A DNA stretch of 32,000 nt from the NCBI RefSeq assembly GCF_001997385.1, contig NZ_CP019633.1, positions 1,410,001 to 1,442,000 on the forward strand, written 5' to 3'. Positions 10,353 through 32,000 of the stretch are shown here, one piece after another. The notes beneath the pieces were generated by a model. It was not told where the DNA came from. It worked only from the letters and a program-made list of their open reading frames with translations, and ran no database searches. This DNA comes from Sedimentisphaera cyanobacteriorum. GTDB taxonomy: Bacteria > Planctomycetota > Phycisphaerae > Sedimentisphaerales > Sedimentisphaeraceae. A program made the position numbers and the translations under genes. Numbering within the stretch: the stretch's first letter is position 1; every line of letters begins with the position of its first letter.

Positions 10353-10844
10353 TTAATTATCAAGCTTCCAAAGATACATAAGTTCAGGGGTGTTGATTTT
10401 CTGGAGAGTCTGCTCAGCATTTGGGAAAAATCCCGTATCCGCTGCGGCATTGCGAAAGAGATATTCCAAACTGAAGGTTTGCTTAAACCCGAAAATTTCG
10501 GGGTCTTCAAGTCCTTCATCTTCTGCAATCTTATCTCTCAGGCTTTCAAGATAGCTTACCCCGTCAATCAAGCCGTTATTTACCGCCTCGTCGCTGTAAT
10601 ATATGCTGCCGTCTGCAAGCTTGAGCACCTGTTCTCTGGAGAGCTTCTCGCGCCCTTCATCCACAAGAGTAACAAAACGCTCATAGGCGGGGGTTATCAT
10701 CTTGCTTTTTATATAATCAAGCTGCTGCTGGGTTACCTCGTCGAACATCTTAGGCCAGTCTTTCTTTTCGCCTGATTTTACTGTGATATTGTTTATCCCC
10801 AGTTTCTCATTCATAAGGGTTTCGAGATTGAAAGACTGCATAAT
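10353..10844 (-). pseudogene. sppA: sppA (signal peptide peptidase, S49) 3' fragment, separated from its 5' part by an IS insertion
   Basis: The translation ...MQSFNLETLMNEKLGINNITVKSGEKKDWPKMF...QQQLDYIKSKMITPAYERFVTLVDEGR...LADGSIYYSDEAVNNGLIDGV is the C-terminal half of 36K-type SppA and includes the catalytic-Lys region. It is in frame with the 5' fragment once the IS is removed. Confidence 0.85.
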
Positions 10845-12379
10845 TAGTCGTTCCTGAAAAATCAATGATTTTGGGGAAACTAAAAAAATATATCAGGCTA
10901 ATCGAGTCTTTAATTTGCTTTTCATTGCCAAATTTCTGTAAAATTCAATAATTTTAAGCATAAAAATATAGGCAAAAGTAAACTTCTTTAGAAGTTTACG
11001 CATATTGTACCCAAAAGCGCTGCCGAGGGCGTTCATTTTGTCCCCTTCTACACCTTTCAAGAAGTTTCTTCCCAACCTGTTGTCTTCTTTGAGGTGGCCT
11101 ATCGTTGGTTCTATGCTCGATCTTCTCTTAATCCACCTCTTGATACTTCGTTTCTTTTTTCGCCAGCCCTTTTCTACAATTTCAACATTTCCAATATCTT
11201 CGCAGCCATGTTTCTTGTATCCTCCATCAACATAAACATCTCCAAGCTTTTCTCTCCCGATTAAATTCATTGTCTGCTTCAGATTAGCCCGAAGAGTATG
11301 GCCATCATAAGGGTTTCCTTCAAAGCCCAACGCTCCTACGATAAAATTATTCTTGGCAGTAGTTACAATTCCAACCTTATTTCCAAACTCATATTTCTTG
11401 TGGCTTTTGCCTTTCCCAATGCAGCAGACGTGAGGTTCGTGAATACTGTAGAGCTTATTTTTGCTTTTCTTTGTCTGGGCTAAAAGCTTCTTAGCGGCTT
11501 GAAGCAATGTATCAAAAATTATTCTTAACTGCTCATTGCCTGCTATATTCCGCTCGACCTCTTTCGTAATTCGCCGCAGGTAGTTCCTTAATTTCTTCAC
11601 TTCTTTTTTAGCTCTTTTGAACTGTTTTGCACGTCGATACCTGCCCTGCATTACATACGCCCTTTTTCCAACCCTTTCGTAGCTTTGGCGAAGTTGGAGT
11701 TTTGAGGCTTTTGCAAGATCTACAAGCTTAATGCGCAGTTTGTGGCAGAGTTTTGCGTCGGTCGGATAAGTGATGTTCTTCTGCTGAACGGTTGTATCTG
11801 CAACGAGCTTGTTGAAATCGTTCTTTTTGATAACCTTAAGCTTCAAGCCGGCTTTGATAGTTTCTTCGAGCAGCTCTTCAAGACCATCAGATTTTACCTT
11901 ATTACGCCACTTAGTCATACTGGTTGGATCAATAGGAGGCTCGTACTGGAAGTATCTTTCGCCGCAGAAATACTGCCAGTAAGGATTCTCAACCCAGCCG
12001 GCAACGATTGCTTCATCGCTGAGATTGAAAGTGTACTTGAGATACTGAAGGCCGACCATCAGGCGAATCGGCTTGGCCGGCCTGCCTGAATCAGGACTGT
12101 ATAAACTGCCAAACTTCTCTTCAAAGCGAGACCAGTTGACAACCTCTGAGAGTTGGACTAAAGAGTGATCAGGATTTACAAGAGGTTTTAATGGCTGCTG
12201 AAAGAGTAAGCCTGCTTTATTGTTTTTTGCCTTCATTATTTTGTCCCAATATTGCAATGTTTTGATAGATGGAAGATAAACACTTGCAATATTATACCAT
12301 ATCTCGAAAGCTTTTCAATCATATAAACCATTATCAGAAAAGAATTTAAGGAAATTTAAAACTTTTTCAGGGGCGACTA
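10845..12379 (-). mobile_element. IS5/IS1182-superfamily insertion sequence (~1.53 kb) inserted in sppA
   Basis: Terminal inverted repeats are TAGTCGTTCCTGAAAAA (10845-) and TAGTCGCCCCTGAAAAA (reverse complement of -12379), matching at 15 of 17 positions. The palindromic 6-mer TAATTA occurs at both junctions (10841-10846, 12378-12383), so the TSD/IR boundary is ambiguous by +/-2 bp. One transposase ORF lies inside. Confidence 0.85.
10893..12257 (-). CDS. IS5/IS1182-type DDE transposase (DUF772-like N-terminal domain)
   Basis: The N-terminus has GRPAKPIRLMVGLQYLKYTFNLSDEAIV...NPYWQYFCG. DDE candidates are VADTTVQQKNITYPTD, VYVDGGYK and IEPTIGHLKEDNRLGRNFLKG. Confidence 0.85.
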   Translation of the reverse strand: MQYWDKIMKAKNNKAGLLFQQPLKPLVNPDHSLVQLSEVVNWSRFEEKFGSLYSPDSGRPAKPIRLMVGLQYLKYTFNLSDEAIVAGWVENPYWQYFCGERYFQYEPPIDPTSMTKWRNKVKSDGLEELLEETIKAGLKLKVIKKNDFNKLVADTTVQQKNITYPTDAKLCHKLRIKLVDLAKASKLQLRQSYERVGKRAYVMQGRYRRAKQFKRAKKEVKKLRNYLRRITKEVERNIAGNEQLRIIFDTLLQAAKKLLAQTKKSKNKLYSIHEPHVCCIGKGKSHKKYEFGNKVGIVTTAKNNFIVGALGFEGNPYDGHTLRANLKQTMNLIGREKLGDVYVDGGYKKHGCEDIGNVEIVEKGWRKKKRSIKRWIKRRSSIEPTIGHLKEDNRLGRNFLKGVEGDKMNALGSAFGYNMRKLLKKFTFAYIFMLKIIEFYRNLAMKSKLKTRLA

Positions 12380-13143
12380 ATTACACCTATAGACCCGGTG
12401 ATTGTGGTGGGCTCGGCATAAATCTCATCACAGGCAGCGGAAACATAATATCCGCCTGAGGCCGCAACACCGGACATAAAAGAATATACGGGAATGCCGG
12501 TGTCTTTTTGGAAGCTTTCAATGTAATGGTGGATCTGGTCGCTCGCAGATACAGAACCGCCCGGAGATGTTACACGAACAATCAAAGCTGCAACGGAGTC
12601 ATCCTTCTGAGCTTTTTTGATTTGGCTCCTGAATTTTTGGCTGGTCTCAAAAGTTATTAGATTCTGCACGTCTATAAGTGCGATTCTGTTATCTCTGCTG
12701 CCTTCCATAATTACGGTTTCATTGAAGCCGCCTCTTGCTAATCTCGAGCCCTCTTCAATATCTATAAATTCATCGTGGCTGAACACAGCAGCAAGGAATG
12801 CCACAATAAACAGCACTACCATAATAAAATACGGTACTGTAATCACCATATAGATAAATTTCATCGCAGACCACAGCCTGCACCAGAACCCCTTTTTCTT
12901 TTTCGGCTCTTTCTCTGGTTTCTTGCCGGCCTTTTTATCGCCCTTCTTGCTCTGCTGCGCAGCCTCTTTAGCGGGCTGTTCCTGCTTCACTTCACGCGCA
13001 GGCTCTTCAGTATTATATCCTTCAGGCTCACCGGAGAGCTCTAATCTTTCATTGTTTTGATAATCCTGATTCTGCTCCTGGTCATCCTCTTTTTCAAAAG
13101 GTGCGTTCTCATCGCTATTTTGATTTTTATAGTCTTCATCCAT
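12380..13143 (-). pseudogene. sppA: sppA 5' fragment: low-complexity N-terminus, TM helix and catalytic-Ser half
   Basis: ...IALIDVQNLI...AALIVRVTSPGGSVSASDQIHHYI...IPVYSFMSGVAASGGYYVSAACDEIYAEPTTITGSIGVI is followed by 3 IS-encoded codons (SRP) and a stop. Confidence 0.85.
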
Positions 13144-23296: not shown

Positions 23297-23836
23297 ATGG
23301 AAAAGTTTAATGAAGACAGACGAGACGAAGATACAAACCGCTTTTTAAGACTTCTTATCAAGCATGAGAAACGCGTTTACGCGTTTATACTCTCTTTGGT
23401 ATCGAATTCGAACGATGCAGACGATATCATGCAGGAAGTTACCACTGTAATGTGGAAGAAATTCCCGAATTACAAAGAGACTATGAACTTCAGAAGCTGG
23501 GCGATGACGATCGCAAAGTATCAGGTGCTCAGCTTTTACAAGAAAAACAAAAACAGGAAAGTTAGGTTCAGCAGCGATCTGCTGGATCTAATCGAACAGG
23601 ACTACTGCAGCAGAGAGCCTGTTGATGAACAAAGCGAACTGCTTGAATTATGTATAAAAGAATTGAAGACCCAAGACAGGGACATAATCCGTCTGAGATA
23701 TGAAGATAACCTCACCCTAAAGAGCATTGGGGCTAAGATTTCCAAATCTGCAAGGGCAGCCCATTACGCCCTTGCAAGGATACACAAGCTTCTGATGAAT
23801 TGCGTGAACAGGAAGAAAGCAAGAAATGACCTCTAA
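23297..23836 (+). CDS. ECF-type RNA polymerase sigma-70 family factor
   Basis: Region 2 is DADDIMQEVTTVMWKKF...FRSWAMTIAKYQVLSFYKK. Region 4 is RDIIRLRYEDNLTLKSIGAKISKSARAAHYALARI. Confidence 0.85.
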   Translation: MEKFNEDRRDEDTNRFLRLLIKHEKRVYAFILSLVSNSNDADDIMQEVTTVMWKKFPNYKETMNFRSWAMTIAKYQVLSFYKKNKNRKVRFSSDLLDLIEQDYCSREPVDEQSELLELCIKELKTQDRDIIRLRYEDNLTLKSIGAKISKSARAAHYALARIHKLLMNCVNRKKARNDL

Positions 23837-25529
23837 ACATAATAATATAAATTTATACGCACTGATACTGGCCAACCTGGACGGGTCGGCTTCTGAGAAT
23901 ATGCAGCAGGAGCTTGCTGATATTCTGGAATCTGACGGACATGCCAGGGTCGTATATGTTGATTTTGTAAACCTCTACAGCAGATTCCGCGCAAGGGGTG
24001 TATCTGAGCTTATAGATGGGGAGAATGGGATTTTGAATATTCCCGAACAGATGTTCGAAGAGCTTCTTGAAGAGGAACGAAACGCCCCGTCACTGGGCAA
24101 AAAAGACAGACATAAACACCCACCATCAAAAAGCTGCGGGAATCATACAGAAAATCAAAACGTAAAGAGGTTTCCAAAGTATAAGCTTTACCTTTTGGCC
24201 GGCTGCGTGGCAGCTCTTATTGCGATAATTGCAGTTCCTTTCTTTTGGCAGAGCAAATTTGAACTGGCTCCGGTAGGCAGAGTAAGCGATGCGTTGGACG
24301 CACGTACTAATGCAGGCAAGCTGATCAGCTCAGGAGAAAGCGTGCTTATATCCAGAGAATCTACAATACTTGAAGATGGCTGCCTCGAAATGATGTTTGC
24401 TAACGGGGCAATTATCACGATAGAGGCTCCGGCAAAATACCAGATTGTTTCAGAAGACCGCATCGATCTGGATTACGGTATGCTTTACGCTACGGTCCCG
24501 CAGAGTGCTATAGGATTCGCAGTTAAATCAGGCAATACGAACATAGTTGACCTCGGGACAGAATTCGGCGTGCAATCAATGCTCAATGGAGATACAGAGC
24601 TTCACGTCTTAGAAGGCAGGACAACAGTAGCAGCACTTAGAGGCTTTGACCGCGTGAGTATGGATGTTACAGAAAACACTGCGATAAATGTTTCCGATTC
24701 AGACGGGAAAGTATCGCTTATAGACATTAAACCTTCTGCCTTTATACGGTATATATCTGAAAAGAACGGTATAATGTGGCGCGGAGAAGGATTTATAGAC
24801 CTCGCAGATATAACAGGCGGGGGCGCCGGCTTCGGCACCGGAAAAACAGGCTCCGGCTACCTGCCTGATACAGGCAAATATGAAACCAGCTACGAAGGCG
24901 TTTCAAAACTTCGAAAAGGCAGAAAGGGCTACAGCAAAGTGGGCGATAATCCGTTTATAGACGGGGTTTTTGTGCCGACAGGTAAATCTGCAGTGATCAG
25001 CTCTGAAGGTCATAAATTCAGCTGGGAAAGTGAGACCAACTCTATCTTCTTCAGCATAATAGCCAACGGCCCGAGCATCAGCCAACGCCCTAAATACCGC
25101 GGGAAGTATAAGGTAAAGCCATACGGTCCTCATTTGGCGTGTTATCCGCTTAAACTCGGAGATGTGAAGTACGGCACAGAAGCACACCCCGCTGTCTATA
25201 TGCACACAAATTCAGGCATCACCTTTGATTTGGAACAGATGCGGGAGCATGTGGATTTCGCACCTCTCGATAAATTCGAGGCTCGAATCGGAGTACCAGA
25301 GAATACTCTCGAAAGGACAGATGTAAACCTGAGCTGGTATCTGCTGTTTGATGGTGAGGTAAAGTATTCTCGGGTAAACACAACTGCATTAGACGCGCCG
25401 GCTGATGTATCTCTGCCTGTTGGCGATGCAAGATTCATAACATTTATGATTACAGATGCCGACGGAGAACAGGCATACGACTGGTGCCTTATGGGCGAAC
25501 CGAGAATCACACTTAAAACATCAAAATAA
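23826..25529 (+). CDS. Membrane-spanning anti-sigma factor: N-terminal anti-sigma segment, TM helix, FecR-like domain, C-terminal NPCBM-like domain
   Basis: It overlaps the sigma gene by 11 nt. The TM helix is LYLLAGCVAALIAIIAVPFFW (aa ~120-141). The FecR-like block is GCLEMMFANGAIITIEAPAKYQI...GFAVKSGNTNIVDLGTEFGV. The C-terminus LKLGDVKYG..HPAVYMHTNSGITFDL...FEARIGV...LLFDGEVKY...ITFMITDADGEQAYDWCLMGEPRI fits the NPCBM pattern. Confidence 0.75.
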   Translation: MTSKHNNINLYALILANLDGSASENMQQELADILESDGHARVVYVDFVNLYSRFRARGVSELIDGENGILNIPEQMFEELLEEERNAPSLGKKDRHKHPPSKSCGNHTENQNVKRFPKYKLYLLAGCVAALIAIIAVPFFWQSKFELAPVGRVSDALDARTNAGKLISSGESVLISRESTILEDGCLEMMFANGAIITIEAPAKYQIVSEDRIDLDYGMLYATVPQSAIGFAVKSGNTNIVDLGTEFGVQSMLNGDTELHVLEGRTTVAALRGFDRVSMDVTENTAINVSDSDGKVSLIDIKPSAFIRYISEKNGIMWRGEGFIDLADITGGGAGFGTGKTGSGYLPDTGKYETSYEGVSKLRKGRKGYSKVGDNPFIDGVFVPTGKSAVISSEGHKFSWESETNSIFFSIIANGPSISQRPKYRGKYKVKPYGPHLACYPLKLGDVKYGTEAHPAVYMHTNSGITFDLEQMREHVDFAPLDKFEARIGVPENTLERTDVNLSWYLLFDGEVKYSRVNTTALDAPADVSLPVGDARFITFMITDADGEQAYDWCLMGEPRITLKTSK

Positions 25530-25748: not shown

Positions 25749-27260
25749 CACAGTCATCCCATAGAAGAGCAAAATACAAGATGTTTCTTTAAAATCAGCG
25801 GGGTATGAGTTACACTAATTCTTTCAGTCTAATTAAACAAATTAGGAGTAACCCATGACACCCGCCAAACATCAATATAGCATTCTTAAGCAAATATGCC
25901 AACATATTCCTGCACATCTTGTTTCAAAATTGTCTCGGTCTTTCGGTATTGACAAGCAATCACGAACATTTTCTTGCTGGTCGCACATTGTATCTATGCT
26001 TCATGTCCAGATTGCTCACAGTCTCTCGCTCAACGACGTTTCCGACACATTGCGTAATCATTCTGGAGCTTTGACTCCTATCCGCCGTGCAACCCCTCCA
26101 AGCAGGAATGGGCTTTCTCATGCAAACAGGGTTCGAGATCCTCTTATGGCAGAGACTCTCTTCTGGGAGGTGCTGTCCCATATCCAGAACAAACATCTTG
26201 ATTTTGGGAGAGGCCATAAGTATTCCGGCCTTCCGAGGCGTTTTAAGAGAGCAATATATGCGGTTGACTCAACCACGATCCAGCTTGTAGCCAACTGTAT
26301 TGACTGGGCTAAACATCGCAGACGAAAAGCGGCTGCAAAGTGCCATATGCAGCTGAATCTCCAGACGTTCCTGCCTCAATTTGCTATTGTAAAAGAAGCC
26401 TCAACCCATGATTCGACAGAAGCTTATCAGCTCTGTCAGGACCTTAAAAGCGGCGAAATAGCGGTTTTTGACAAGGCTTACGTGGATTTTAAGCATCTAG
26501 CAGATCTTGACAGGCGAGAATTATTCTGGGTTACCAGAGCCAAAGATAATATGAAATATCGTTTTGTTAAACAGAATACAGAACCAAAAGGTAATATCCA
26601 ATACGATGCTTTAATTGAACTTGAAATGCCGAAAAGCCGCGAGGCATACCCGAAGAAGCTCCGTTTAGTTAAGGCTTATGTGGAAATTAACGGCGAGAAA
26701 AAGCTTATGAAATTTATCACGAACAATATGCAGTGGGCGCCGAGCAGTATTTGCGACCTATATAAGTGCCGCTGGGGTATAGAGGTGTTTTTCAAGCAGA
26801 TAAAACAGACTTTGCAGCTAAGCGATTTCCTAGGGCATAGCCAAAAAGCAATTCTATGGCAAGTATGGACGGCTATGCTGGCTTATATTTTAATAAGGTA
26901 TATAGGTTTCCTCGGTCAGTGGAAAGGAGCATTCAGCCGATTGTTTACTTTACTGAGGGGTGTATTATTCAGCCGGCTGGATGTTTTTAGCGTTATGGCT
27001 CCCTGTGGGACAGCACGTGGTTCACCGCGTATGGTTGGCAGCCCTCAGCAGGCTTATTTGCCGGGTTTTAATATGTAGCAAGATTTTACGAAAATAAAGA
27101 GGTGAAAAGAGAGCGGGCAGTATTGAGCAAAAAACTGCCAATTGAACAAAAGCAAAAAAAAAATGCAAACTGGGGTAATTCAAATCCTTCAAGAAAAGGG
27201 CGTTTTAATACAATAAACAAGCCCTCAACGATAAATTTATGGACTTATGGGATGGCTGTG
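25749..27260 (+). mobile_element. IS4-family insertion sequence (1512 bp) with intact ends
   Basis: Terminal inverted repeats are CACAGTCATCCCATA (25749-) and CACAGCCATCCCATA (reverse complement of -27260), matching at 14 of 15 positions. It carries a 9-bp TSD and a single DDE transposase ORF. Confidence 0.9.
25855..27078 (+). CDS. IS4-family DDE transposase (DUF4372-like N-terminus)
   Basis: AVDSTTIQL and VFDKAYVDF are the D residues. YKCRWGIEVFFKQIK is an exact Y-2-R-3-E-6-K signature of IS4-family transposases. Confidence 0.9.
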   Translation: MTPAKHQYSILKQICQHIPAHLVSKLSRSFGIDKQSRTFSCWSHIVSMLHVQIAHSLSLNDVSDTLRNHSGALTPIRRATPPSRNGLSHANRVRDPLMAETLFWEVLSHIQNKHLDFGRGHKYSGLPRRFKRAIYAVDSTTIQLVANCIDWAKHRRRKAAAKCHMQLNLQTFLPQFAIVKEASTHDSTEAYQLCQDLKSGEIAVFDKAYVDFKHLADLDRRELFWVTRAKDNMKYRFVKQNTEPKGNIQYDALIELEMPKSREAYPKKLRLVKAYVEINGEKKLMKFITNNMQWAPSSICDLYKCRWGIEVFFKQIKQTLQLSDFLGHSQKAILWQVWTAMLAYILIRYIGFLGQWKGAFSRLFTLLRGVLFSRLDVFSVMAPCGTARGSPRMVGSPQQAYLPGFNM

Positions 27261-27312: not shown

Positions 27313-27405
27313 AGACATACAGCCGGGGGAGCTCTTTTCAGAGCTGAGAGGCCGCACGTGCGGCGACCCTTCGAACCTGATTGGTTAAGACCAGCGAAGG
27401 AAGGC
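27313..27405 (+). promoter_or_regulatory. TPP (THI-box) riboswitch
   Basis: GGGGAGCUCUUUUCAGAGCUGAGA..GCCGCACGUGCGGC..ACCCUUCGAACCUGAUUGGUUAAGACCAGCGAAGGAAGG contains the conserved CUGAGA, ACCUGAU and GCG-AGG elements and the expected hairpins. It lies directly 5' of thiFSGH. Confidence 0.9.
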
Positions 27406-27420
27406 AAAAAAGAAAAATTT

Positions 27421-27448
27421 GCACGTCCTTTGCGGGCGTGCTTTTTTT
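27421..27448 (+). terminator. Riboswitch expression-platform terminator
   Basis: GCACGTCC-TTTGC-GGGCGTGC forms an 8-bp stem with one G-T pair (27421-27441). It is followed by TTTTTTT (27442-27448), which runs directly into the ATG at 27449. Confidence 0.7.
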
Positions 27449-28081
27449 ATGGGTAAAATGAATATACAAGATAATTTCCGCAAACAGTCAGAGAGCAGCG
27501 CAAAGCTGAAGGCAGTTCTGAAGAATGCCCGAATAGGGATTGCAGGATTAGGCGGGCTGGGCAGTCATGTTGGTGAAATGCTGATTCGCTCTGGCTCCGG
27601 CAGGCTAACGACGGCCGATTTCGACAGAGTGGACTCATCCAACCTCGCTCGGCAATGCTACAGGCTTTCTGATATCGGCAAGCTGAAAACAGATGCCATA
27701 GCAGAGATTGCATCGAATATTTCCCCGAGCTGCCGTATAGATAAGCATACCGTTCGGCTGAGCAGCGAAAATGCCTGCGAGGTTTTCAGAGGATGCGATA
27801 TAGTATGCGAGTGCTTGGATAAAGCAGAAAGCAAACAGGAGCTTATCGAAACTCTGCTGAAAGCAGGCAGATTTATCGTAGTTGCAGGAAGCGGAGCGGC
27901 CGGCCTTGGCCGGAGCAACGAGATAAAGACAACGAAAATCAGCGAGAGGCTGTATATCGCCGGCGATATGAAAAGCAGCGTGGAAGAGCTGGGCAGCCTC
28001 TGGGCGCCGCGAGTTACGATAGCAGCAGCGCATCAGGCAAACTGCGTTTTAGAACTTTTAGAGGAAAAGCTATGCAAATAA
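27449..28081 (+). CDS. thiF: ThiF-family sulfur-carrier (ThiS) adenylyltransferase
   Basis: ARIGIAGLGGLGSHVGEMLIRSGSGRLTTADFDRVDSSNLARQ is the E1-like nucleotide-binding motif. The start is trimmed to lie after the terminator. The ATG at 27458 is an alternative. Confidence 0.85.
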   Translation: MGKMNIQDNFRKQSESSAKLKAVLKNARIGIAGLGGLGSHVGEMLIRSGSGRLTTADFDRVDSSNLARQCYRLSDIGKLKTDAIAEIASNISPSCRIDKHTVRLSSENACEVFRGCDIVCECLDKAESKQELIETLLKAGRFIVVAGSGAAGLGRSNEIKTTKISERLYIAGDMKSSVEELGSLWAPRVTIAAAHQANCVLELLEEKLCK

Positions 28082-28281
28082 GAGTAAACGGCAAGGATAT
28101 GAATTTCTCCGATAACAGCGCCCCTGCCACCGTGAAGGAGCTCATAGACCATTTAGGTATAGACAGCGCGGCAGTAGTTGCAGAGGTGGACGGTGAGATT
28201 GTGGAGAAACGCAATTTCGAGAATACAAAAATTAAAGATTCGCAAAAAATTGAACTTATCAGATTCGTCGGAGGCGGATAA
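28072..28281 (+). CDS. thiS: Sulfur carrier protein ThiS
   Basis: 69 aa, MQIRVNGK...ELIRFVGGG with a C-terminal Gly-Gly. It overlaps thiF by 10 nt. Confidence 0.9.
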
Positions 28282-29054
28282 TGAATGATAAAATGATAAT
28301 AGCAGGAAGAGAATTCAGCTCCCGGCTTTTTATAGGCACAGGCAAATTTGCATCAAACAGAATTATGAGCGATGCTATAGAGGCAAGCGGTTCTGAGATG
28401 GTAACTGTTGCCCTTCGCAGGGTGAATATAGAAGACAGCAGCGATGATATGCTCTCTGCGATTATGCGTGAGAACGTCCAGCTTCTTCCGAATACATCCG
28501 GAGCGAGGGATGCAAAAGAGGCCGTAAGGCTTGCCAAGATTGCCCGAGCTGCGAGCGGGATTGAATGGGTTAAGCTGGAAGTAACTCCGGACCCGTACTA
28601 CCTTCTGCCCGATCCAGTAGAAACGCTGGAAGCAGCCAAAGAGCTTGTAGATGAGGGATTTATCGTGCTGCCTTATATTAATGCAGACCCTGTTCTGGCC
28701 AAGAAGCTTGAGGATGCAGGCTGCGCAACTGTGATGCCGCTGGCAGCTCCGATAGGCTCAAATAAAGGCATCAAAACCCGCGATTCAATAAAGATAATTA
28801 TCTCACAGGCCTCAGTGCCTGTTGTTGTGGATGCCGGTCTTGGGCTTCCCTCACATGCAGCGGACGCTATGGAGATGGGAGCAGATGCAGTACTCGTGAA
28901 TACGGCAATCGCTGTATGCGATAAGCCTTCTGAGATGGCTCAGGCATTCGCAAAGTCTGTGGAGGCTGGCAGACAGGGATATCTTGCAGGCCCTGGATGC
29001 GTTAGCGAAACAGCAAACGCCTCAAGCCCGCTTACAGGCTTTTTACGAGACTGA
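28281..29054 (+). CDS. thiG: Thiazole synthase
   Basis: [11 protein letters not shown]...VTVALRR...LLPNTSGA...VKLEV...[12 protein letters not shown]...[27 protein letters not shown]. Confidence 0.95.
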
Positions 29055-29066
29055 AAGGAGGTAAAA

Positions 29067-30203
29067 ATGCAGAATAAGCAATTCAGCGTTCCGGAAGAAA
29101 TTTTCGACCCTGAGAGCAGAATCTCAAGAATTCTTGAAGAGACAACCCAGAGGCAGGCTTTTTCTGAGCTTGAAAAACCTGCTGAATATTCAATCGAGAG
29201 GCTCGCACGCCTGCTTTCGCCTGCTGCCTCAGCGAACCTGGAGGATATGGCAAGGCAGGCCAAGGATATGACCCTGCGCAGATTCGGCAGGGCAAGGCAG
29301 CTCTATGCCCCTCTGTACGTTTCCAACTACTGCCAAAACAACTGCGCATACTGCGGATTCAACTTTACGCACAAGTTTAAGCGAACCCGACTCAGCATAG
29401 ATCAGGCCGTAAAAGAGGCAGAGGCGATCCGCTCGATGGGCTTTCGCCATATCCTTCTGCTCTCCGGGGAAGACCCCGATTACGCATCTGTGGAATACTT
29501 TGAAGAGCTTGCAGGCAGGATAAGAAAGCTCTTTGCAGCTATAGATATCGAAATTTACCCATGCAGTGAAGAGAATTACGAAAGGCTCTACAACGCCGGC
29601 ATAGACGGAATAACGATATATCAGGAAACTTACGACCGCAGCATTTATTCCAAACTGCATACCAAAGGGCCTAAGAAAGATTACAACTGGCGCCTGCATA
29701 CACCACAGCGTGCAGCAGAGTCAGGTTTTAGGAGAATCGGTCTCGGTTCACTGCTCGGGATAAGCGATTGGAGAAAAGAAACCCTCGCAATGGCCGAACA
29801 CGGCAATTTTTTTATAAAAAATTTCTGGAAATCCCAAGTATCAATTTCATTCCCGAGAATAAGACCGGCCGAGCAGGTCGACCCGCAGGATTTTGTGAGC
29901 TTCGTATCTGACAGAGAGACTGTTCAGATGATGCTCGCTCTTAGGCTTTGCTTCCCCGATATCGGGATAACCATCTCCACAAGAGAGACCTCCGAATTCA
30001 GAGAAAATACGCTAAGTATCTGTGTAACAAGGATTAGCGCCGGTTCTAAGACGAATCCGGGCGGGTATGCAGGCAGCGAAAATGAAACTGTTTCGCAGTT
30101 CGAGATCGACGACGACAGAACGCCTGAAGATGTAGCAAAGGTGATAAGCCAAATGGGTTTTGAACCGGTATGGAAAGACTGGGACGAGGGATTTTCTGAT
30201 TAA
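29067..30203 (+). CDS. thiH: 2-iminoacetate synthase (radical SAM)
   Basis: The radical-SAM motif YVSNYCQNNCAYCGF. Length and operon context with thiFSG also fit. Confidence 0.9.
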   Translation: MQNKQFSVPEEIFDPESRISRILEETTQRQAFSELEKPAEYSIERLARLLSPAASANLEDMARQAKDMTLRRFGRARQLYAPLYVSNYCQNNCAYCGFNFTHKFKRTRLSIDQAVKEAEAIRSMGFRHILLLSGEDPDYASVEYFEELAGRIRKLFAAIDIEIYPCSEENYERLYNAGIDGITIYQETYDRSIYSKLHTKGPKKDYNWRLHTPQRAAESGFRRIGLGSLLGISDWRKETLAMAEHGNFFIKNFWKSQVSISFPRIRPAEQVDPQDFVSFVSDRETVQMMLALRLCFPDIGITISTRETSEFRENTLSICVTRISAGSKTNPGGYAGSENETVSQFEIDDDRTPEDVAKVISQMGFEPVWKDWDEGFSD

Positions 30204-30379: not shown

Positions 30380-30781
30380 ATGAAATTCAGCAGATCTACA
30401 GGTTACGGTTTAATTGCGGCAGCTTACATTGCTAAGAATGGTGATCCGAAGACTGCGATTCTTGCATCAAGCATTGCCAAAGAATTCGACATTCCTCTCG
30501 AGTATTTGCTTAAGATTCTTCAGAATCTTGTAAGGGCAAATGTCCTCAGAAGTAAGAGAGGGCCAAGAGGCGGTTTTTATCTTGCAAAGCAGCCGGGCGA
30601 TATCAACCTGCTCGAAATTATCGAAGCAGTTGACGGCCCTGCTAACAGCGAGATTCAGCTGCCGGAAAGATGTGAAGAGCTTCCTTATATGAAGCACATC
30701 ACAGATGCTTGCAAAGAGGCAGTTGACAAGACAAAGAATGTCTTAGTAAATGTCAAGCTTTCTGCAGTTATCAAAGGCTAA
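30380..30781 (+). CDS. Rrf2-family transcriptional regulator
   Basis: MKFSRSTGYGLIAAAYIAK...SIAKEFDIPLEYLLKILQNLVRANVLRSKRGPRGGFYLAK is a winged helix typical of Rrf2. It has only two Cys, so it is probably not an IscR-type Fe-S sensor. Confidence 0.85.
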   Translation: MKFSRSTGYGLIAAAYIAKNGDPKTAILASSIAKEFDIPLEYLLKILQNLVRANVLRSKRGPRGGFYLAKQPGDINLLEIIEAVDGPANSEIQLPERCEELPYMKHITDACKEAVDKTKNVLVNVKLSAVIKG

Positions 30782-30793
30782 TACCTCTCTTCA

Positions 30794-31057
30794 ATGGAAA
30801 TATCAGAATTCCAAAAATTTATTGAAGAGAAGTATGGCGAAGTTGATCGGAAGCGCGGCACTAACGCCACCTTTCTCTGGTTTATTGAAGAGGTTGGAGA
30901 GCTTGCTACCGCGCTTTCCGGCGACGACTTTGAAAACAAGCAGGAGGAGTTCGCCGATGTGTTTGCTTGGCTTTGTACACTGGCAAACATCAACGGCGTT
31001 GACTTGGAGAGCGTTATATCTAAGTATCTGGACAACCAGGTTGAGGGATTCAAGTAG
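30794..31057 (+). CDS. MazG-like nucleotide pyrophosphohydrolase domain protein (small, single domain)
   Basis: FLWFIEEVGELATAL...EEFADVFAWLCTLANINGVDLE has the E-x-x-E ... E-x-x-D metal-binding helices of the MazG/all-alpha NTP-PPase fold. Confidence 0.75.
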   Translation: MEISEFQKFIEEKYGEVDRKRGTNATFLWFIEEVGELATALSGDDFENKQEEFADVFAWLCTLANINGVDLESVISKYLDNQVEGFK

Positions 31058-31198
31058 TTCAGGCATTGTCGAAGATTAATAATGGGCTTGCTCTGTCTGT
31101 ACACACGTTCTTTGGAACATACGTTAAAAAAACTGCTAAACATGTGTTTAGGGTTGTTAAGTGTTTATTAACTTTATTTAAAACCGGGGGTTTACTCT

Positions 31199-31501
31199 AT
31201 GGCAAAGAAAACTGCTAAGAAAACTGCCAAAAAGACAGCGAAGAAAACATCAACCAAGAAAAGTGCTGCAAAGAAGACGACCAAGAAGAAGACGACCAAG
31301 AAAAAACCAGCAAAGAAGTCAGCACCAAAGGAGCCGCTCATTGTAGCGAGCAAGGTTAAGGCCTACATCAAAGAGGGCGGAAAGATGACAGCATCAGAAA
31401 CTCTTGATGCTATCAACGAAAAGATTTACGCTATGCTTGATGATGCTATGGGCAGAACAGATTCTAATAACAGAAGCACTGTTAAGCCTCAGGACCTATA
31501 A
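31199..31501 (+). CDS. Histone-fold (HBb/DUF1931-like) DNA-binding protein with an H1-like lysine-rich N-terminal tail
   Basis: aa 1-44 is MAKKTAKKTAKKTAKKTSTKKSAAKKTTKKKTTKKKPAKKSAPK. aa 45-100 is EPLIVASKVKAYIKEGGKMTASETLDAINEKIYAMLDDAMGRTDSNNRSTVKPQDL, i.e. helix-loop-long helix-loop ending in the R-x-T-V-x-x-x-D motif. Confidence 0.6.
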   Translation: MAKKTAKKTAKKTAKKTSTKKSAAKKTTKKKTTKKKPAKKSAPKEPLIVASKVKAYIKEGGKMTASETLDAINEKIYAMLDDAMGRTDSNNRSTVKPQDL

Positions 31502-31515
31502 TCAAAAGTCATAAA

Positions 31516-31546
31516 AGCGGGGCTTAATTTGCTCCGCTTTTTTTTT
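31516..31546 (+). terminator. Intrinsic terminator after the histone-like gene
   Basis: AGCGGGGC (31516-31523) / GCTCCGCT (31531-31538) form an 8-bp stem with one G-T pair. It is followed by a T-run (31539-31546). Confidence 0.7.
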
Positions 31547-31551
31547 AATCC

Positions 31552-31965
31552 ATGAAGCTCAGCACCCTGTTTATCTCCAGATTAGTATTTTCGCTTGCGG
31601 TATTGGCAACGATACTGCTAATCTATCTTACGCATGCTCCGATGGAGCAGCTCAAAGAAGATTACGGCGGATTTATCCACACATTGGGAGATAAGGCTCT
31701 TCATTTGCTAGCATACGGCGGGGTTGCATTTCTGTACTTTTTAGCAGCAAGATTTGCGGAATTTTCCCGGAAGGCACTGCACCGCCTGCTTGGAGCACTG
31801 CTTGTATTTTCGGCAGTGGATGAAGGGACGCAGGCACTTGTAGGGAGGAATGCGGACTGGCTGGATTTGCTCTTTAATCTGGCGGGGATTGTTATCGGTT
31901 TGTTCTTGAGCAAACTTTTCTATATTATTGCAAAAAAGACTGTCCGGCGTTTTTTCATGGAATAA
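31552..31965 (+). CDS. VanZ-like family membrane protein
   Basis: Four predicted TM segments. DKALHLLAYGGVAFLY and DEGTQALVGRNADWLDLLFNLAGIVIG are typical VanZ-like blocks. Confidence 0.75.
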   Translation: MKLSTLFISRLVFSLAVLATILLIYLTHAPMEQLKEDYGGFIHTLGDKALHLLAYGGVAFLYFLAARFAEFSRKALHRLLGALLVFSAVDEGTQALVGRNADWLDLLFNLAGIVIGLFLSKLFYIIAKKTVRRFFME

Positions 31966-32000
31966 CCCCTTATAAGCACCTTTAAGAGTTTTTTCTGCTT

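What the first reader, a model, noticed from the sequence alone, without database searches (positions are those of the whole stretch)
31199..31501. Bacterial histone-fold protein carrying a eukaryote-style lysine-rich tail
The 100-aa ORF has two modules. Residues 1-44 are an uninterrupted K/T/A/S tract (KKTA x4, then KKTTKKK-type units). The underlying 12-nt units differ by synonymous changes (aag aaa act gct / aag aaa act gcc / aaa aag aca gcg), so the repeat is kept at the protein level rather than by recent slippage. Residues 45-100 read as helix 1 (IVASKVKAYIKE), loop (GGKMTAS), long helix 2 (ETLDAINEKIYAMLDDAMGR) and loop 2 ending in R-S-T-V-K-P-Q-D. This matches the R-K-T-V/I-x-x-x-D signature of archaeal HMf and eukaryotic H4. 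It also closely resembles, as I recall it, the Bdellovibrio HBb (Bd0055)/DUF1931 family. The ORF stops right after that motif, so helix 3 is absent or truncated, as in the bacterial dimer-type histones. Most prokaryotic histones lack tails, so a fold plus a 44-aa basic tail is unusual. It is relevant to nucleoid compaction in PVC-type bacteria. The gene looks like its own unit, with an upstream palindrome and its own terminator.
Basis: partly seen in the sequence, partly recalled or inferred. Interest (0 to 1): 0.7.

Follow-up and report, generated by a model that had tools for sequence, protein, structure and literature searches.

The report
Tailed face-to-face bacterial histone gene
This is a real gene for a small bacterial histone of the tetramer-forming, DNA-wrapping (HLp-like) kind, carrying a long lysine-rich floppy tail; the kind is already described in Planctomycetota, so this is an extreme example rather than a new thing.

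Summary
The ORF at 31199-31501 (+) is real. It encodes 100 aa: a disordered Lys/Thr/Ala tail (aa 1-45, 21 Lys, net about +20) and a 54-aa histone fold with a one-turn alpha-3. The fold matches the crystallised Leptospira perolatii histone HLp far better than Bdellovibrio HBb (phmmer 1.5e-18 vs 6e-4; Foldseek TM 0.95, 59% identity vs 35%). It has the face-to-face (FtF) tetramer signature R86/N90/R92 and the RxTxxxxD clamp; HBb lacks the first two. It fails the Pfam DUF1931 and Histone thresholds. So the fold call is right, but the subfamily is FtF, not the HBb dimer type or DUF1931.

Relatives occur in 431 species genomes, mainly Phycisphaerae/Sedimentisphaerales and Leptospira. Their tails range from about 6 to about 60 aa. 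Schwab et al. [quoted passage not shown]

Observations I did not find in the papers I read:
- Tail length anticorrelates with fold net charge. This fold is net 0, among the lowest 3%.
- Tails grow by in-frame slippage; there is a perfect 15-nt duplication at 31271-31302.
- Relatives share a leader with hairpins of varying sequence.

Verdict: new member of a known kind, modest interest.

The parts
31199..31501 (+). Complete coding sequence of the 100-aa tailed histone, stop codon included
   Evidence: ORF list. Homologues found. PDB match to HLp, E=1.5e-18.
31199..31333 (+). N-terminal tail, aa 1-45: Lys/Thr/Ala/Ser/Pro-rich, 21 Lys, net about +20, predicted disordered
   Evidence: AlphaFold2 pLDDT is below 50 for residues 6-33, and block means are 41-53 up to residue 40. 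Codon list. In relatives the tail varies in length and in repeat unit, but the MAKK start is kept.
31205..31248 (+). Diverged 12-nt repeat (AKKT units) with synonymous differences between copies
   Evidence: TRF: period 12, 3.7 copies, 78% matches. Codons.
31271..31302 (+). Perfect 15-nt tandem duplication (AAGAAGACGACCAAG x2.1 = KKTTK KKTTK): a recent in-frame slippage or duplication
   Evidence: TRF: 100% matches, score 64. Similar perfect in-frame repeats with different units occur in the tails of L001, L015, L004 and L003.
31337..31498 (+). Histone fold, aa 47-100: alpha1 50-59, L1 60-65, alpha2 66-89, L2 with R92-x-T94-x4-D99, one-turn alpha3 97-99, C-terminal L100
   Evidence: AlphaFold2 block pLDDT 94-97 for residues 51-100. 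Foldseek to 9qt0/9qt1: TM 0.95-0.96, rmsd 0.7-0.8, 59-60% identity. The block is exactly 54 aa long in 115 of 115 motif-bearing relatives.
31454..31474 (+). Codons for R86-T-D-S89-N90-N-R92: the face-to-face tetramer-interface signature
   Evidence: R86, N90 and R92 are invariant in alignment A1. They equal HLp R49, N53 and R55, shown crystallographically to make the dimer-dimer contacts (PMC12701072). HBb has S and D at the first two positions (alignment).
31186..31190 (+). Shine-Dalgarno-like GGGGG, 8 nt upstream of the ATG
   Evidence: Read directly from the sequence. Relatives have GGAGG or GGGGG at a comparable spacing before the MAKK ATG.
31136..31151 (.). Upstream palindrome/hairpin CTAAACA-tg-TGTTTAG in the 141-nt intergenic leader
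   Evidence: perfect 7-nt arms, unique in the window, 0.03 expected by chance. Relatives carry hairpins of different sequence at a similar position. Function not established.
31513..31546 (+). Intrinsic-terminator-like hairpin (11 pairs, 6 G-C, loop of 7) followed by a T-run, starting 12 nt after the stop codon
   Evidence: Terminator scan.

Best explanation
The gene encodes a nucleoid-organising histone of the alpha3 / face-to-face (FtF) subfamily, the family of Leptospira HLp and archaeal HTkC. The host is probably a Sedimentisphaerales-like member of the Phycisphaerae (Planctomycetota).

Proposed mechanism, step by step:
1. The 54-aa fold (aa 47-100) pairs head-to-tail into a handshake dimer.
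2. Two dimers join face to face through R86, S89, N90 and R92 on one side and Q98 and the C-terminal L100 on the other. This makes a ring-shaped homotetramer.
3. The tetramer binds DNA without sequence specificity around its rim and wraps roughly 60 bp. Contacts would come from the alpha1 N-terminus and lysines (A50, S51, K52, K54, K58) and the L1/L2 beta-bridge (T64, S66, S93, T94), as shown for HLp.
4. Each subunit also carries a 45-aa disordered Lys/Thr/Ala tail (about +20). The tail leaves the fold directly beside the alpha1 N-terminal DNA contact.
5. Because this fold is net neutral, the four tails (about +80 per tetramer) would supply most of the electrostatic affinity. They would neutralise wrapped or neighbouring DNA and favour bridging or condensation, as the lysine-rich tails of linker histone H1 or mycobacterial HupB/MDP1 do.
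6. Tail length is set by in-frame replication slippage of AAG/AAA-rich repeats and drifts quickly between lineages.
7. The gene is monocistronic, with its own leader and intrinsic terminator.

What is shown here: the ORF, homology, fold, signature residues, predicted disorder, charge pattern, repeat dynamics and taxonomic distribution.

What is inferred: tetramer formation, DNA wrapping, tail-DNA binding, and abundance in the cell.
For: Sequence similarity:
- phmmer against the PDB: HLp 9qt0 E=1.5e-18 over aa 40-99; HBb 6e-4; HTkC 0.24.
- Family profile against the PDB: HLp 95 bits (1.9e-26), HBb 48 bits, HTkC 42 bits.

Structure:
- AlphaFold2 gives a confident fold and a disordered tail.
- The top Foldseek hits are HLp free and DNA-bound: TM 0.95-0.96, rmsd 0.7-0.8.

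Signature residues:
- Tetramer-interface residues named in the HLp crystal paper (R49, S52, N53, R55, T61, F63) map to R86, S89, N90, R92, Q98, L100. R86, N90 and R92 are invariant in 68 relatives.
- HLp DNA-contact residues (A13, S14, K15, K17, K21, T27, G29, T56, T57) map to A50, S51, K52, K54, K58, T64, S66, S93, T94. Seven of nine are identical.
- The protein ends one residue after the clamp Asp in 115 of 115 close relatives and in 105 of 114 singlet representatives. This fits a structural role for the C-terminal carboxylate, as described by Schwab et al. 2024.

Distribution:
- 431 species genomes hold a relative, mainly Phycisphaerae/Sedimentisphaerales plus Leptospira.
- 2062 cluster representatives match at E<=1e-3.

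Tail and charge:
- Tail length anticorrelates with fold net charge. Spearman rho is -0.50 over 188 proteins, -0.25 across 75%-identity clusters (p=0.03), and -0.52 within clusters.
- This fold has net charge 0; only 8 of 238 relatives are at or below 0. The tail is +20.
- Perfect in-frame tandem DNA repeats with different units occur in several long tails.

Gene unit:
- Terminator. Shine-Dalgarno-like run before the tail's ATG.

Literature:
- Schwab et al. 2024 (PMC11390915) report FtF histones in Planctomycetota and positively charged tails as common in bacterial FtF histones.
- Hu et al. 2025 (PMC12701072) show that HLp forms tetramers and wraps about 60 bp.
Against: - No oligomer could be predicted or measured here. 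The tetramer rests on conserved interface residues only. Two of the six HLp interface positions differ (T61 to Q98, F63 to L100).
- The fold is net neutral. Long-tailed relatives have lost basic residues at positions 61, 88 and 91. Positions 88 and 91 lie within the R86-R92 stretch that forms the dimer-dimer interface, where HLp-DNA_2 shows DNA bound. Wrapping may therefore be weaker or differently routed than in HLp.
- HLp was studied in its short 63-aa form, so there are no data on what a long tail does in this family.
- Expression level is unknown. No sigma-70-type promoter was found by the consensus scan.
- The charge/tail correlation is not phylogenetically corrected beyond crude clustering.
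Confidence: 0.8

Rival explanations
1. HBb-type 'bacterial dimer' histone. The protein works as a dimer that bends DNA or coats straight DNA end-on, and forms no tetramer.
For: It shares the truncated alpha3 fold with HBb (Foldseek TM 0.86-0.90, rmsd 0.7-0.8). HBb is a significant sequence hit (6e-4; 9.5e-12 with the profile). Bacterial dimer histones also occur in Planctomycetota (PMC11390915).
Against: The HLp match is far stronger (95 vs 48 bits; 59% vs 35% identity). The family-defining difference is that dimer histones lack logo positions R48 and N52. This protein has both (R86, N90), and they are invariant in relatives. It has RSTV rather than the RKTV of dimer histones.
Confidence: 0.08
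2. Tail-driven condenser. The lysine-rich tail is the real DNA-binding and condensing module, acting like linker histone H1 or chlamydial Hc1/Hc2. The neutral fold serves mainly as an oligomerisation hub that makes the tails tetravalent. The result is bridging or coacervation rather than nucleosome-like wrapping.
For: The fold net charge is 0, against about +5.4 on average in tail-less relatives and +3 in HLp. Basic residues are lost at positions 61, 88 and 91 in long-tailed relatives. Total charge still rises steeply with tail length, from 6.6 to 20.4. The tail gives weak compositional hits to HC2, Rv3852-family and Burkholderia H1-like models.
Against: Seven of nine HLp DNA-contact residues, including K52, K54 and K58, are still conserved. 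This argues that the fold still touches DNA. The H1-like hits are far below their cutoffs and are explained by composition. There are no functional data.
Confidence: 0.15
3. DUF1931-type pseudodimeric histone-fold protein (Aquifex Aq_328 / Thermus type) that does not bind DNA.
For: There is a weak Pfam DUF1931 hit (E=0.019-0.052). The depositors' name for 9qt0 is 'DUF1931 domain-containing protein'.
Against: The score is below the gathering cutoff (14.2-15.6 vs 21.8 bits) and covers only 39 of 138 model positions. The protein has one fold, not two. DNA-contact and RD-clamp residues are present. The literature places DUF1931 pseudodimers in a separate cluster from FtF histones.
Confidence: 0.01
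4. Spurious low-complexity ORF, or a mis-called start so that the tail is not translated.
For: The tail is low-complexity, and it produces a mirror ORF on the minus strand (31192..31353). For Leptospira HLp, the authors concluded that the longer annotated N-terminus is not translated.
Against: 31199 is the first start codon after an in-frame stop. No in-frame ATG, GTG or TTG occurs before M63 (codons of aa 1-46; aa 47-62 read from the sequence). An SD-like run lies 8 nt upstream. M1, A2, K3 and K4 are at least 90% conserved, and tails stay in frame across hundreds of relatives despite length changes. Repeat periods are multiples of 3.
Confidence: 0.02

Closest known systems
HLp, face-to-face (FtF) histone of Leptospira perolatii (PDB 9QT0/9QT1/9QT2; Hu et al. 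2025, PMC12701072)
   Same: It has the same 54-aa fold with a one-turn alpha3, at 59-60% identity, TM 0.95 and rmsd 0.7-0.8. It keeps the same tetramer residues (R49, N53, R55 = R86, N90, R92), the same RD clamp, and 7 of 9 DNA-contact residues. Both proteins end one residue after the clamp Asp.
   Different: HLp as studied has only about 9 residues before the fold and a fold net charge of +3. Here there are 45-46 residues of Lys-rich tail and a fold net charge of 0. Interface positions T61 and F63 are Q98 and L100 here. The phylum differs: Spirochaetota versus Planctomycetota.
Tailed bacterial FtF histones surveyed by Schwab et al. 2024 (PMC11390915), e.g. D0LYZ1 of Haliangium ochraceum and E1WYC3 of Halobacteriovorax marinus
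   Same: The architecture is the same: a positively charged, non-conserved N-terminal tail on an FtF fold. Planctomycetota are listed among the main bacterial hosts.
   Different: Those tails were described as 'H3-like'. This one is a short-period KK-small-small repeat and lies at the long end of the range (16 of 238 relatives are as long or longer). The fold-charge trade-off and slippage dynamics are not mentioned in the passages I read.
HBb (Bd0055), bacterial dimer histone of Bdellovibrio bacteriovorus (PDB 8CMP, 8FVX, 9EZZ)
   Same: Both have a truncated alpha3 histone fold, alpha1 lysines and an RD clamp. TM is 0.86-0.90.
   Different: Identity is only 34-35%. HBb has S and D where this protein has R86 and N90, and RKTV where this has RSTV. 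HBb is a dimer that bends or coats DNA and has no long tail.
HTkC, archaeal FtF histone of Thermococcus kodakarensis (PDB 9F2C)
   Same: It has the same fold (TM 0.90) and belongs to the same tetrameric FtF class. The profile E-value is 8e-10.
   Different: Identity is 24-25%. Archaeal FtF histones generally lack tails.
Lysine-rich repeat tails on other bacterial nucleoid proteins: mycobacterial HupB/MDP1 C-terminal tail, chlamydial Hc1/Hc2, Burkholderia H1-like protein, and the eukaryotic H1 C-terminal domain
   Same: All are disordered Lys/Ala/Pro/Thr repeats appended to, or acting as, a DNA-compacting protein. Weak compositional hits were found to HC2, the Rv3852 family and hist_H1_lk_Burk. 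The review PMC10919886 treats such tails as easily gained.
   Different: The folded domain is unrelated (HU or none, versus a histone fold). All hits are far below family cutoffs, so this is convergence, not homology.
Asgard-archaeal and eukaryotic core-histone N-terminal tails
   Same: They are disordered, net positive, lysine-based, and alternate between small and basic residues.
   Different: No motifs are shared. The tail here is not conserved even among close relatives, whereas eukaryotic tails are highly conserved. No reader or writer machinery is implied.

Membership tests
alpha3 / face-to-face (FtF) histones (Schwab 2024; HLp, HTkC) | Single histone fold with alpha3 truncated to about one turn | tested here: met
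   AlphaFold2 model: alpha1 50-59, alpha2 66-89, helical turn 97-99, block pLDDT 94-97 for residues 51-100. TM 0.95 to 9qt0.
alpha3 / face-to-face (FtF) histones (Schwab 2024; HLp, HTkC) | RxTxxxxD motif (RD clamp plus L2 threonine), typically without the K of RKT | tested here: met
   R92-S-T94-V-K-P-Q-D99. R92, T94 and D99 are invariant in 68 relatives.
alpha3 / face-to-face (FtF) histones (Schwab 2024; HLp, HTkC) | Tetramerisation residues: logo R48 and N52 (HLp R49, N53, plus R55) | tested here: met
   R86, N90 and R92 have the same spacing (+4, +6) and are invariant. Their roles in the HLp crystal structure are given.
alpha3 / face-to-face (FtF) histones (Schwab 2024; HLp, HTkC) | Conserved solvent-exposed alpha1 lysines | tested here: met
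   K52 and K54 are invariant and K58 is at least 90% conserved. They equal HLp K15, K17 and K21, which contact DNA.
alpha3 / face-to-face (FtF) histones (Schwab 2024; HLp, HTkC) | Significant sequence similarity to a solved FtF member | tested here: met
   HLp: 1.5e-18 and 1.9e-26 with the profile. HTkC: 8.3e-10 with the profile.
alpha3 / face-to-face (FtF) histones (Schwab 2024; HLp, HTkC) | Forms a torus-shaped homotetramer (the feature that defines the class) | not testable with these tools
   Only single-chain prediction was available. The tetramer is inferred from the conserved interface residues.
alpha3 / face-to-face (FtF) histones (Schwab 2024; HLp, HTkC) | Non-specific DNA binding with wrapping of about 50-60 bp | not testable with these tools
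   This needs EMSA, MNase, TPM or a structure. Seven of nine HLp DNA-contact residues are conserved.
Bacterial dimer histones (HBb/Bd0055 type) | Absence of the FtF dimer-dimer residues (logo R48, N52) | tested here: not met
   This protein has R86 and N90. HBb aligns S and D at those positions.
Bacterial dimer histones (HBb/Bd0055 type) | RKTxxxD motif with the basic residue after R | tested here: not met
   The sequence here is R-S-T. S93 is at least 90% conserved in alignment A3.
DUF1931 (PF09123) pseudodimeric histone-fold proteins | Score at or above the Pfam gathering threshold; two tandem folds in one chain | tested here: not met
   14.2 bits for the full protein and 15.6 bits for the fold alone, against a 21.8-bit cutoff. 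Only profile positions 15-53 of 138 are matched. The protein has a single fold.
Pfam Histone (PF00125), eukaryotic/archaeal core histones | Score at or above the gathering threshold | tested here: not met
   12.5 bits against 26.4. Structural matches to nucleosomal histones reach only TM 0.4-0.57 with E>=0.05.
H1-like lysine-rich bacterial proteins (HC2 PF07382; NF038053 Burkholderia H1-like; NF050153 Rv3852 family) | Score at or above the curated cutoff | tested here: not met
   18.7 vs 40, 17.5 vs 80 and 21.1 vs 100 bits. The resemblance is compositional only.
Eukaryotic-type core-histone tails | Tail sequence conserved at given distances from the fold | tested here: not met
   Tails of the closest relatives use different repeat units (KKTA here, KKPAA in P0001, KKKVA in L001, PKKAA in L004) and range from 6 to about 60 aa.

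The most novel reading that the evidence does not exclude
In one lineage of Sedimentisphaerales-type Phycisphaerae, the FtF histone may have moved its DNA-binding charge off the fold and onto a tail that can expand by slippage. The fold is net 0 and has lost basic residues next to the tetramer interface. This would make a single protein that combines core-histone-like wrapping with linker-histone-like condensation. Tail length would act as a fast-evolving control on nucleoid compaction. The conserved leader, with hairpins whose sequence varies between relatives, could give post-transcriptional or attenuation control of histone dosage.
Probability: 0.2. Interest if true: 0.55.

Novelty: new member of a known kind. 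Interest (0 to 1): 0.3.

Why it matters
Bacterial histones have been studied experimentally only recently (HBb in 2023-24, HLp in 2025). All of that structural and biochemical work used essentially tail-less proteins.

This locus is a clear natural example of the other extreme: a near-neutral FtF fold carrying a +20 tail. It comes from a phylum, Planctomycetota, for which I found no experimental work on histones in the searched library.

It would be a good construct for asking what tails do on a prokaryotic histone tetramer, in terms of affinity, bridging, condensation and modification. It also illustrates the 'tails come and go easily' idea from the eukaryogenesis debate.

It does not change the picture of which bacteria have histones, or of the fact that such tails exist.

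Tried and rejected
- Exact-sequence look-up of the window protein in the assembly index found nothing on record. The source genome is therefore not identified directly. Placement near Sedimentisphaeraceae rests on shared Rrf2-MazG-histone synteny with L004 (62% and 75% aa identity of the two neighbours) and on the taxonomy of the best hits.
- Conserved gene neighbourhood: only L004 shares the neighbours, and the closest protein hit, P0001, has a different context. There is no operon partner.
- Sigma-70 consensus promoter scan found none in 30700-32000.
- Rfam at gathering thresholds found nothing in the histone leader. The only hit in the window is a TPP riboswitch elsewhere.
- RNAalifold on a MAFFT alignment of 14 leaders predicted no consensus pairs, because the hairpins are out of register. 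The 92-nt window leader folds no better than shuffles (z=0.22). Only the family-wide z-score test gave a signal.
- Second histone copy in the window: none found (tblastn).
- Searching the supplement of Schwab 2024 for tail statistics recovered only figure legends.
- AAG over AAA preference in the tail (14:7, against 103:124 in eight other ORFs) is suggestive but too weak to interpret.
- The DUF6465 hit (19.8 bits against a cutoff of 26) is treated as compositional and was not pursued.
- Multimer prediction was not possible with the single-chain predictor and its input restriction.
Full report
1. OBSERVATION

The ORF at 31199..31501 on the + strand (ATG start, 100 aa) is present as described. 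Its product is MAKKTAKKTAKKTAKKTSTKKSAAKKTTKKKTTKKKPAKKSAPKEPLIVASKVKAYIKEGGKMTASETLDAINEKIYAMLDDAMGRTDSNNRSTVKPQDL.

Residues 1-44 contain 21 lysines and no acidic residue.

However, 31271-31302 is a perfect 15-nt tandem duplication (100% matches). Part of the tail is therefore the product of a recent in-frame duplication.

The upstream palindrome is CTAAACA-tg-TGTTTAG at 31136-31151. It is unique in the window, with 0.03 expected by chance. A hairpin followed by a T-run sits at 31513-31546. Both are real.

31199 is the first start codon after an in-frame stop. There is no in-frame ATG, GTG or TTG before M63 (for codons 1-46; codons 47-62 read directly from the sequence). A GGGGG run lies 8 nt upstream of the ATG. 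The tail is therefore part of the primary translation product.

2. WHAT IT IS

Sequence searches:
- phmmer against all PDB chains gives the Leptospira perolatii histone HLp (9QT0/9QT1/9QT2) at E=1.5e-18 over aa 40-99. Bdellovibrio HBb scores about 6e-4 and archaeal HTkC 0.24.
- A profile of 68 relatives gives HLp 95 bits, HBb 48 bits and HTkC 42 bits.
DUF1931 scores 14.2-15.6 bits against 21.8 and matches only 39 of 138 model positions. Histone scores 12.5 against 26.4.

Structure:
- An AlphaFold2 model built on the family alignment has a disordered tail (pLDDT below 50 for residues 6-33). The fold is very confident, with block pLDDT of 94-97 for residues 51-100. It has alpha1 at 50-59, alpha2 at 66-89 and a single helical turn at 97-99.
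- Foldseek against the PDB ranks HLp, free and DNA-bound, first (TM 0.95-0.96, rmsd 0.7-0.8, 59-60% identity). HBb follows (TM 0.86-0.90, 34-35% identity), then HTkC (TM 0.90, 24%). Nucleosomal histones reach only TM 0.4-0.57.

3. SUBFAMILY

Schwab et al. 2024 (PMC11390915) split the truncated-alpha3 histones into face-to-face (FtF) tetramers and several minor groups, one of which is the 'bacterial dimers' that include HBb. FtF histones are marked by an Arg and an Asn (logo positions R48 and N52) that make the dimer-dimer contacts, together with the RxTxxxxD motif. Dimer histones lack R48 and N52 and have RKT.

The HLp crystal paper (PMC12701072) names R49, S52 and N53 on one side of the interface and R55, T61 and F63 on the other. 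With an offset of +37 these are R86, S89, N90, R92, Q98 and L100 here.

- R86, N90, R92, T94 and D99 are invariant in 68 relatives.
- In the alignment, HBb has Ser and Asp opposite R86 and N90.
- HLp's DNA-contact residues (A13, S14, K15, K17, K21, T27, G29, T56, T57) map to A50, S51, K52, K54, K58, T64, S66, S93 and T94. Seven of nine are identical.
- The protein stops one residue after the clamp Asp. So do 115 of 115 close relatives and 105 of 114 singlet cluster representatives. This fits the reported role of the C-terminal carboxylate at the interface.

I therefore file it as an FtF (HLp-like) histone, not as an HBb-type dimer or a DUF1931 pseudodimer. The tetramer itself could not be tested, because only single-chain prediction was available.

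4. DISTRIBUTION AND THE TAIL

Family size:
- A scan of one genome per species found 431 genomes with a relative. The best 80 are almost all Phycisphaerae/Sedimentisphaerales/Anaerohalosphaeraceae MAGs, other Planctomycetota bins, and Leptospira.
- An exhaustive profile search of 1.84 billion cluster representatives found 2062 at E<=1e-3 and 390 at E<=1e-10.

Tail lengths:
- In 73 resolved loci (the window included) the fold is constant and the N-terminus varies. 32 have only 6-8 residues (MAKKKE...). Most of the rest have 10-29. About 10 have 30 or more.
- Among 238 non-redundant relatives, 16 have tails at least as long as this one.
- Tails of the closest relatives use different repeat units: KKTA here, KKPAA in P0001, KKKVA in L001 and PKKAA in L004.
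- Several carry their own perfect in-frame tandem DNA repeats, for example a 15-nt unit x2.7 in L001 and 12-nt units in L015, L004 and L003. Tails thus grow and shrink by slippage, and only composition is kept.

This matches what is already published. [quoted passage not shown] A review argues that such tails are easily gained and lost (PMC10919886). I found no paper in the searched library that deals specifically with Planctomycetota histone tails.

5. OBSERVATIONS THAT GO SLIGHTLY BEYOND THE LITERATURE I READ

(a) Tail length is anticorrelated with the net charge of the fold.
- Spearman rho is -0.50 over 188 proteins.
- It is -0.25 (p=0.03) across 71 clusters at 75% fold identity, and -0.52 within clusters.
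- Mean fold charge falls from +5.4 for tails of 9 aa or fewer to +2.9 for tails of 40 aa or more. Total charge still rises from 6.6 to 20.4.
- The window protein is extreme: fold charge 0 (only 8 of 238 are at or below 0) and tail +20.
- The lost charges sit at position 61 in L1 and at positions 88 and 91, within the R86-R92 stretch that forms the tetramer interface.

(b) The leader is conserved in many relatives. It contains, in order:
- a TTGCAA-N17-(A)AATAC promoter-like pair;
- a stem-loop whose sequence differs from genome to genome (GGCGGCAC/GTGCCGC, CGGCAC/GTGCCG, GCCCAC/GTGGGC, TACGGCAA/TTGCCGTA, TAACCGC/GCGGTTA, and others);
- a TTAT(G/T)GGAAC element;
- GGAGG shortly before the ATG.

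The segment from -72 to -23 folds better than dinucleotide shuffles across 72 loci (mean z = -0.98; 22% have z below -2). The loci are related, so the p-value is inflated.

The window's palindrome occupies the equivalent place but is a weak A/U-rich stem (z=-1.32 over 50 nt; z=0.22 over 92 nt). RNAalifold on an unguided alignment saw nothing, and Rfam has no family there. Whether this is a 5'-UTR stabiliser, an attenuator or something in a promoter spacer is open.

6. MECHANISM

Shown here: homology, fold, signature residues, predicted disorder, charge pattern and repeat dynamics.

Inferred from HLp (PMC12701072): handshake dimers pair face to face into a ring tetramer that binds DNA non-specifically and wraps about 60 bp.

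Inferred from geometry and charge: the tail leaves the fold right next to the alpha1 N-terminal 'paired end of helices' DNA contact (A50, S51, K52). Four tails of about +20 each would therefore lie on or reach out from the wrapped DNA. They would supply most of the electrostatic binding and promote neutralisation, bridging or condensation. This is how lysine-rich tails are thought to work on H1 and on mycobacterial HupB (established knowledge of those proteins, not tested here).

The main internal rival is that in this long-tailed lineage the fold has become mostly an oligomerisation hub, and the tail does the DNA work.

7. CONTEXT

The gene is monocistronic. It lies 141 nt after a MazG-like gene (30794-31057), which follows an Rrf2-family regulator (30380-30781), and 50 nt before a VanZ-like gene (31552-31965). 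Only L004 (Sedimentisphaeraceae bacterium JB056) shares the Rrf2-MazG-histone order, at 62% and 75% aa identity for the two neighbours. The closest protein hit, P0001, sits in a different neighbourhood. The window has 45.5% G+C and holds no second histone copy.

8. VERDICT

It is wrong about the subfamily and about how unusual the tail is. This is a new, rather extreme member of a known kind. Interest is modest (0.3). It would rise if experiments showed that long tails change the binding mode.

Noticed in passing
L002-L080, about 110 nt upstream of each histone start (window equivalent 31110-31198): Many Phycisphaerae relatives share a conserved leader: a TTGCAA-N17-(A)AATAC promoter-like pair, a G+C-rich hairpin whose sequence differs between genomes, a TTAT(G/T)GGAAC element, and GGAGG. 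The segment from -72 to -23 folds better than shuffles (mean z -0.98 over 72 loci). No Rfam family matches it.
   Followed up: partly
window 27315-27419 (+): A TPP riboswitch (RF00059, 68 bits, full length) sits directly upstream of a thiF-like gene (27419-28081), thiG (28281-29054) and a thiH-like radical-SAM gene (29067-30203).
   Followed up: partly
window 10353-13143 (-): A peptidase S49 (SppA-like) gene appears to be split by an insertion sequence. The ORF at 12367-13143 ends at S49 profile positions 2-46. The ORF at 10353-10865 resumes at profile positions 44-153. A DUF772/DDE transposase ORF (10893-12257) lies between them.
   Followed up: no
window 25855-27078 (+): A second transposase (DUF4372 plus a DDE_Tnp_1 domain) lies between an ECF sigma / FecR-like pair (23297-25529) and the TPP riboswitch.
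   Followed up: no
Proteins P0121, P0126, P0131, P0134, P0140 and others: 18 of the 150 best cluster representatives are tandem doublets: two FtF-type folds, each with RxxxNxRxTxxxxD, in one chain of about 120 aa. These look like FtF pseudodimers.
   Followed up: no
Proteins P0249, P0137, P0185, P0186, P0211, P0125: Some relatives, both singlets and doublets, start with a hydrophobic, signal-peptide-like N-terminus (for example MKRRSTKYGLCAAMACVVIAILV...) instead of a basic tail. This is odd for a DNA-binding histone. They may be mis-called starts or may be exported or membrane-anchored.
   Followed up: no
Protein P0194: One FtF relative has an 88-aa Ser/Thr/Arg-rich N-terminal tail (RS-like, K fraction 0.07) rather than a Lys-rich one.
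   Followed up: no
Relatives P0006, P0046, P0052, P0113; loci L012, L015, L063: Several Phycisphaerae relatives carry 3-5 cysteines in alpha2 and L1 of the fold or in the tail (for example NCKLYCMLDCA, or a tail ending in ...KKACASSACANKE). The window protein has none.
   Followed up: no
L004 5002-6171 versus window 30380-31501: The Rrf2-family regulator, MazG-like pyrophosphohydrolase and histone gene order is shared only with Sedimentisphaeraceae bacterium JB056 among 81 loci. This is the best clue to the source organism of the window.
   Followed up: partly
L014, L020, L021, L024, L028 (Leptospira loci): The Leptospira hlp ORFs can be read with an extra basic N-terminus (MVQKKKTTVKRKNS...) upstream of the 63-aa form used for the crystal structures. 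The authors chose the short form on the basis of Shine-Dalgarno position. The true start therefore decides whether Leptospira has a tail.
   Followed up: no
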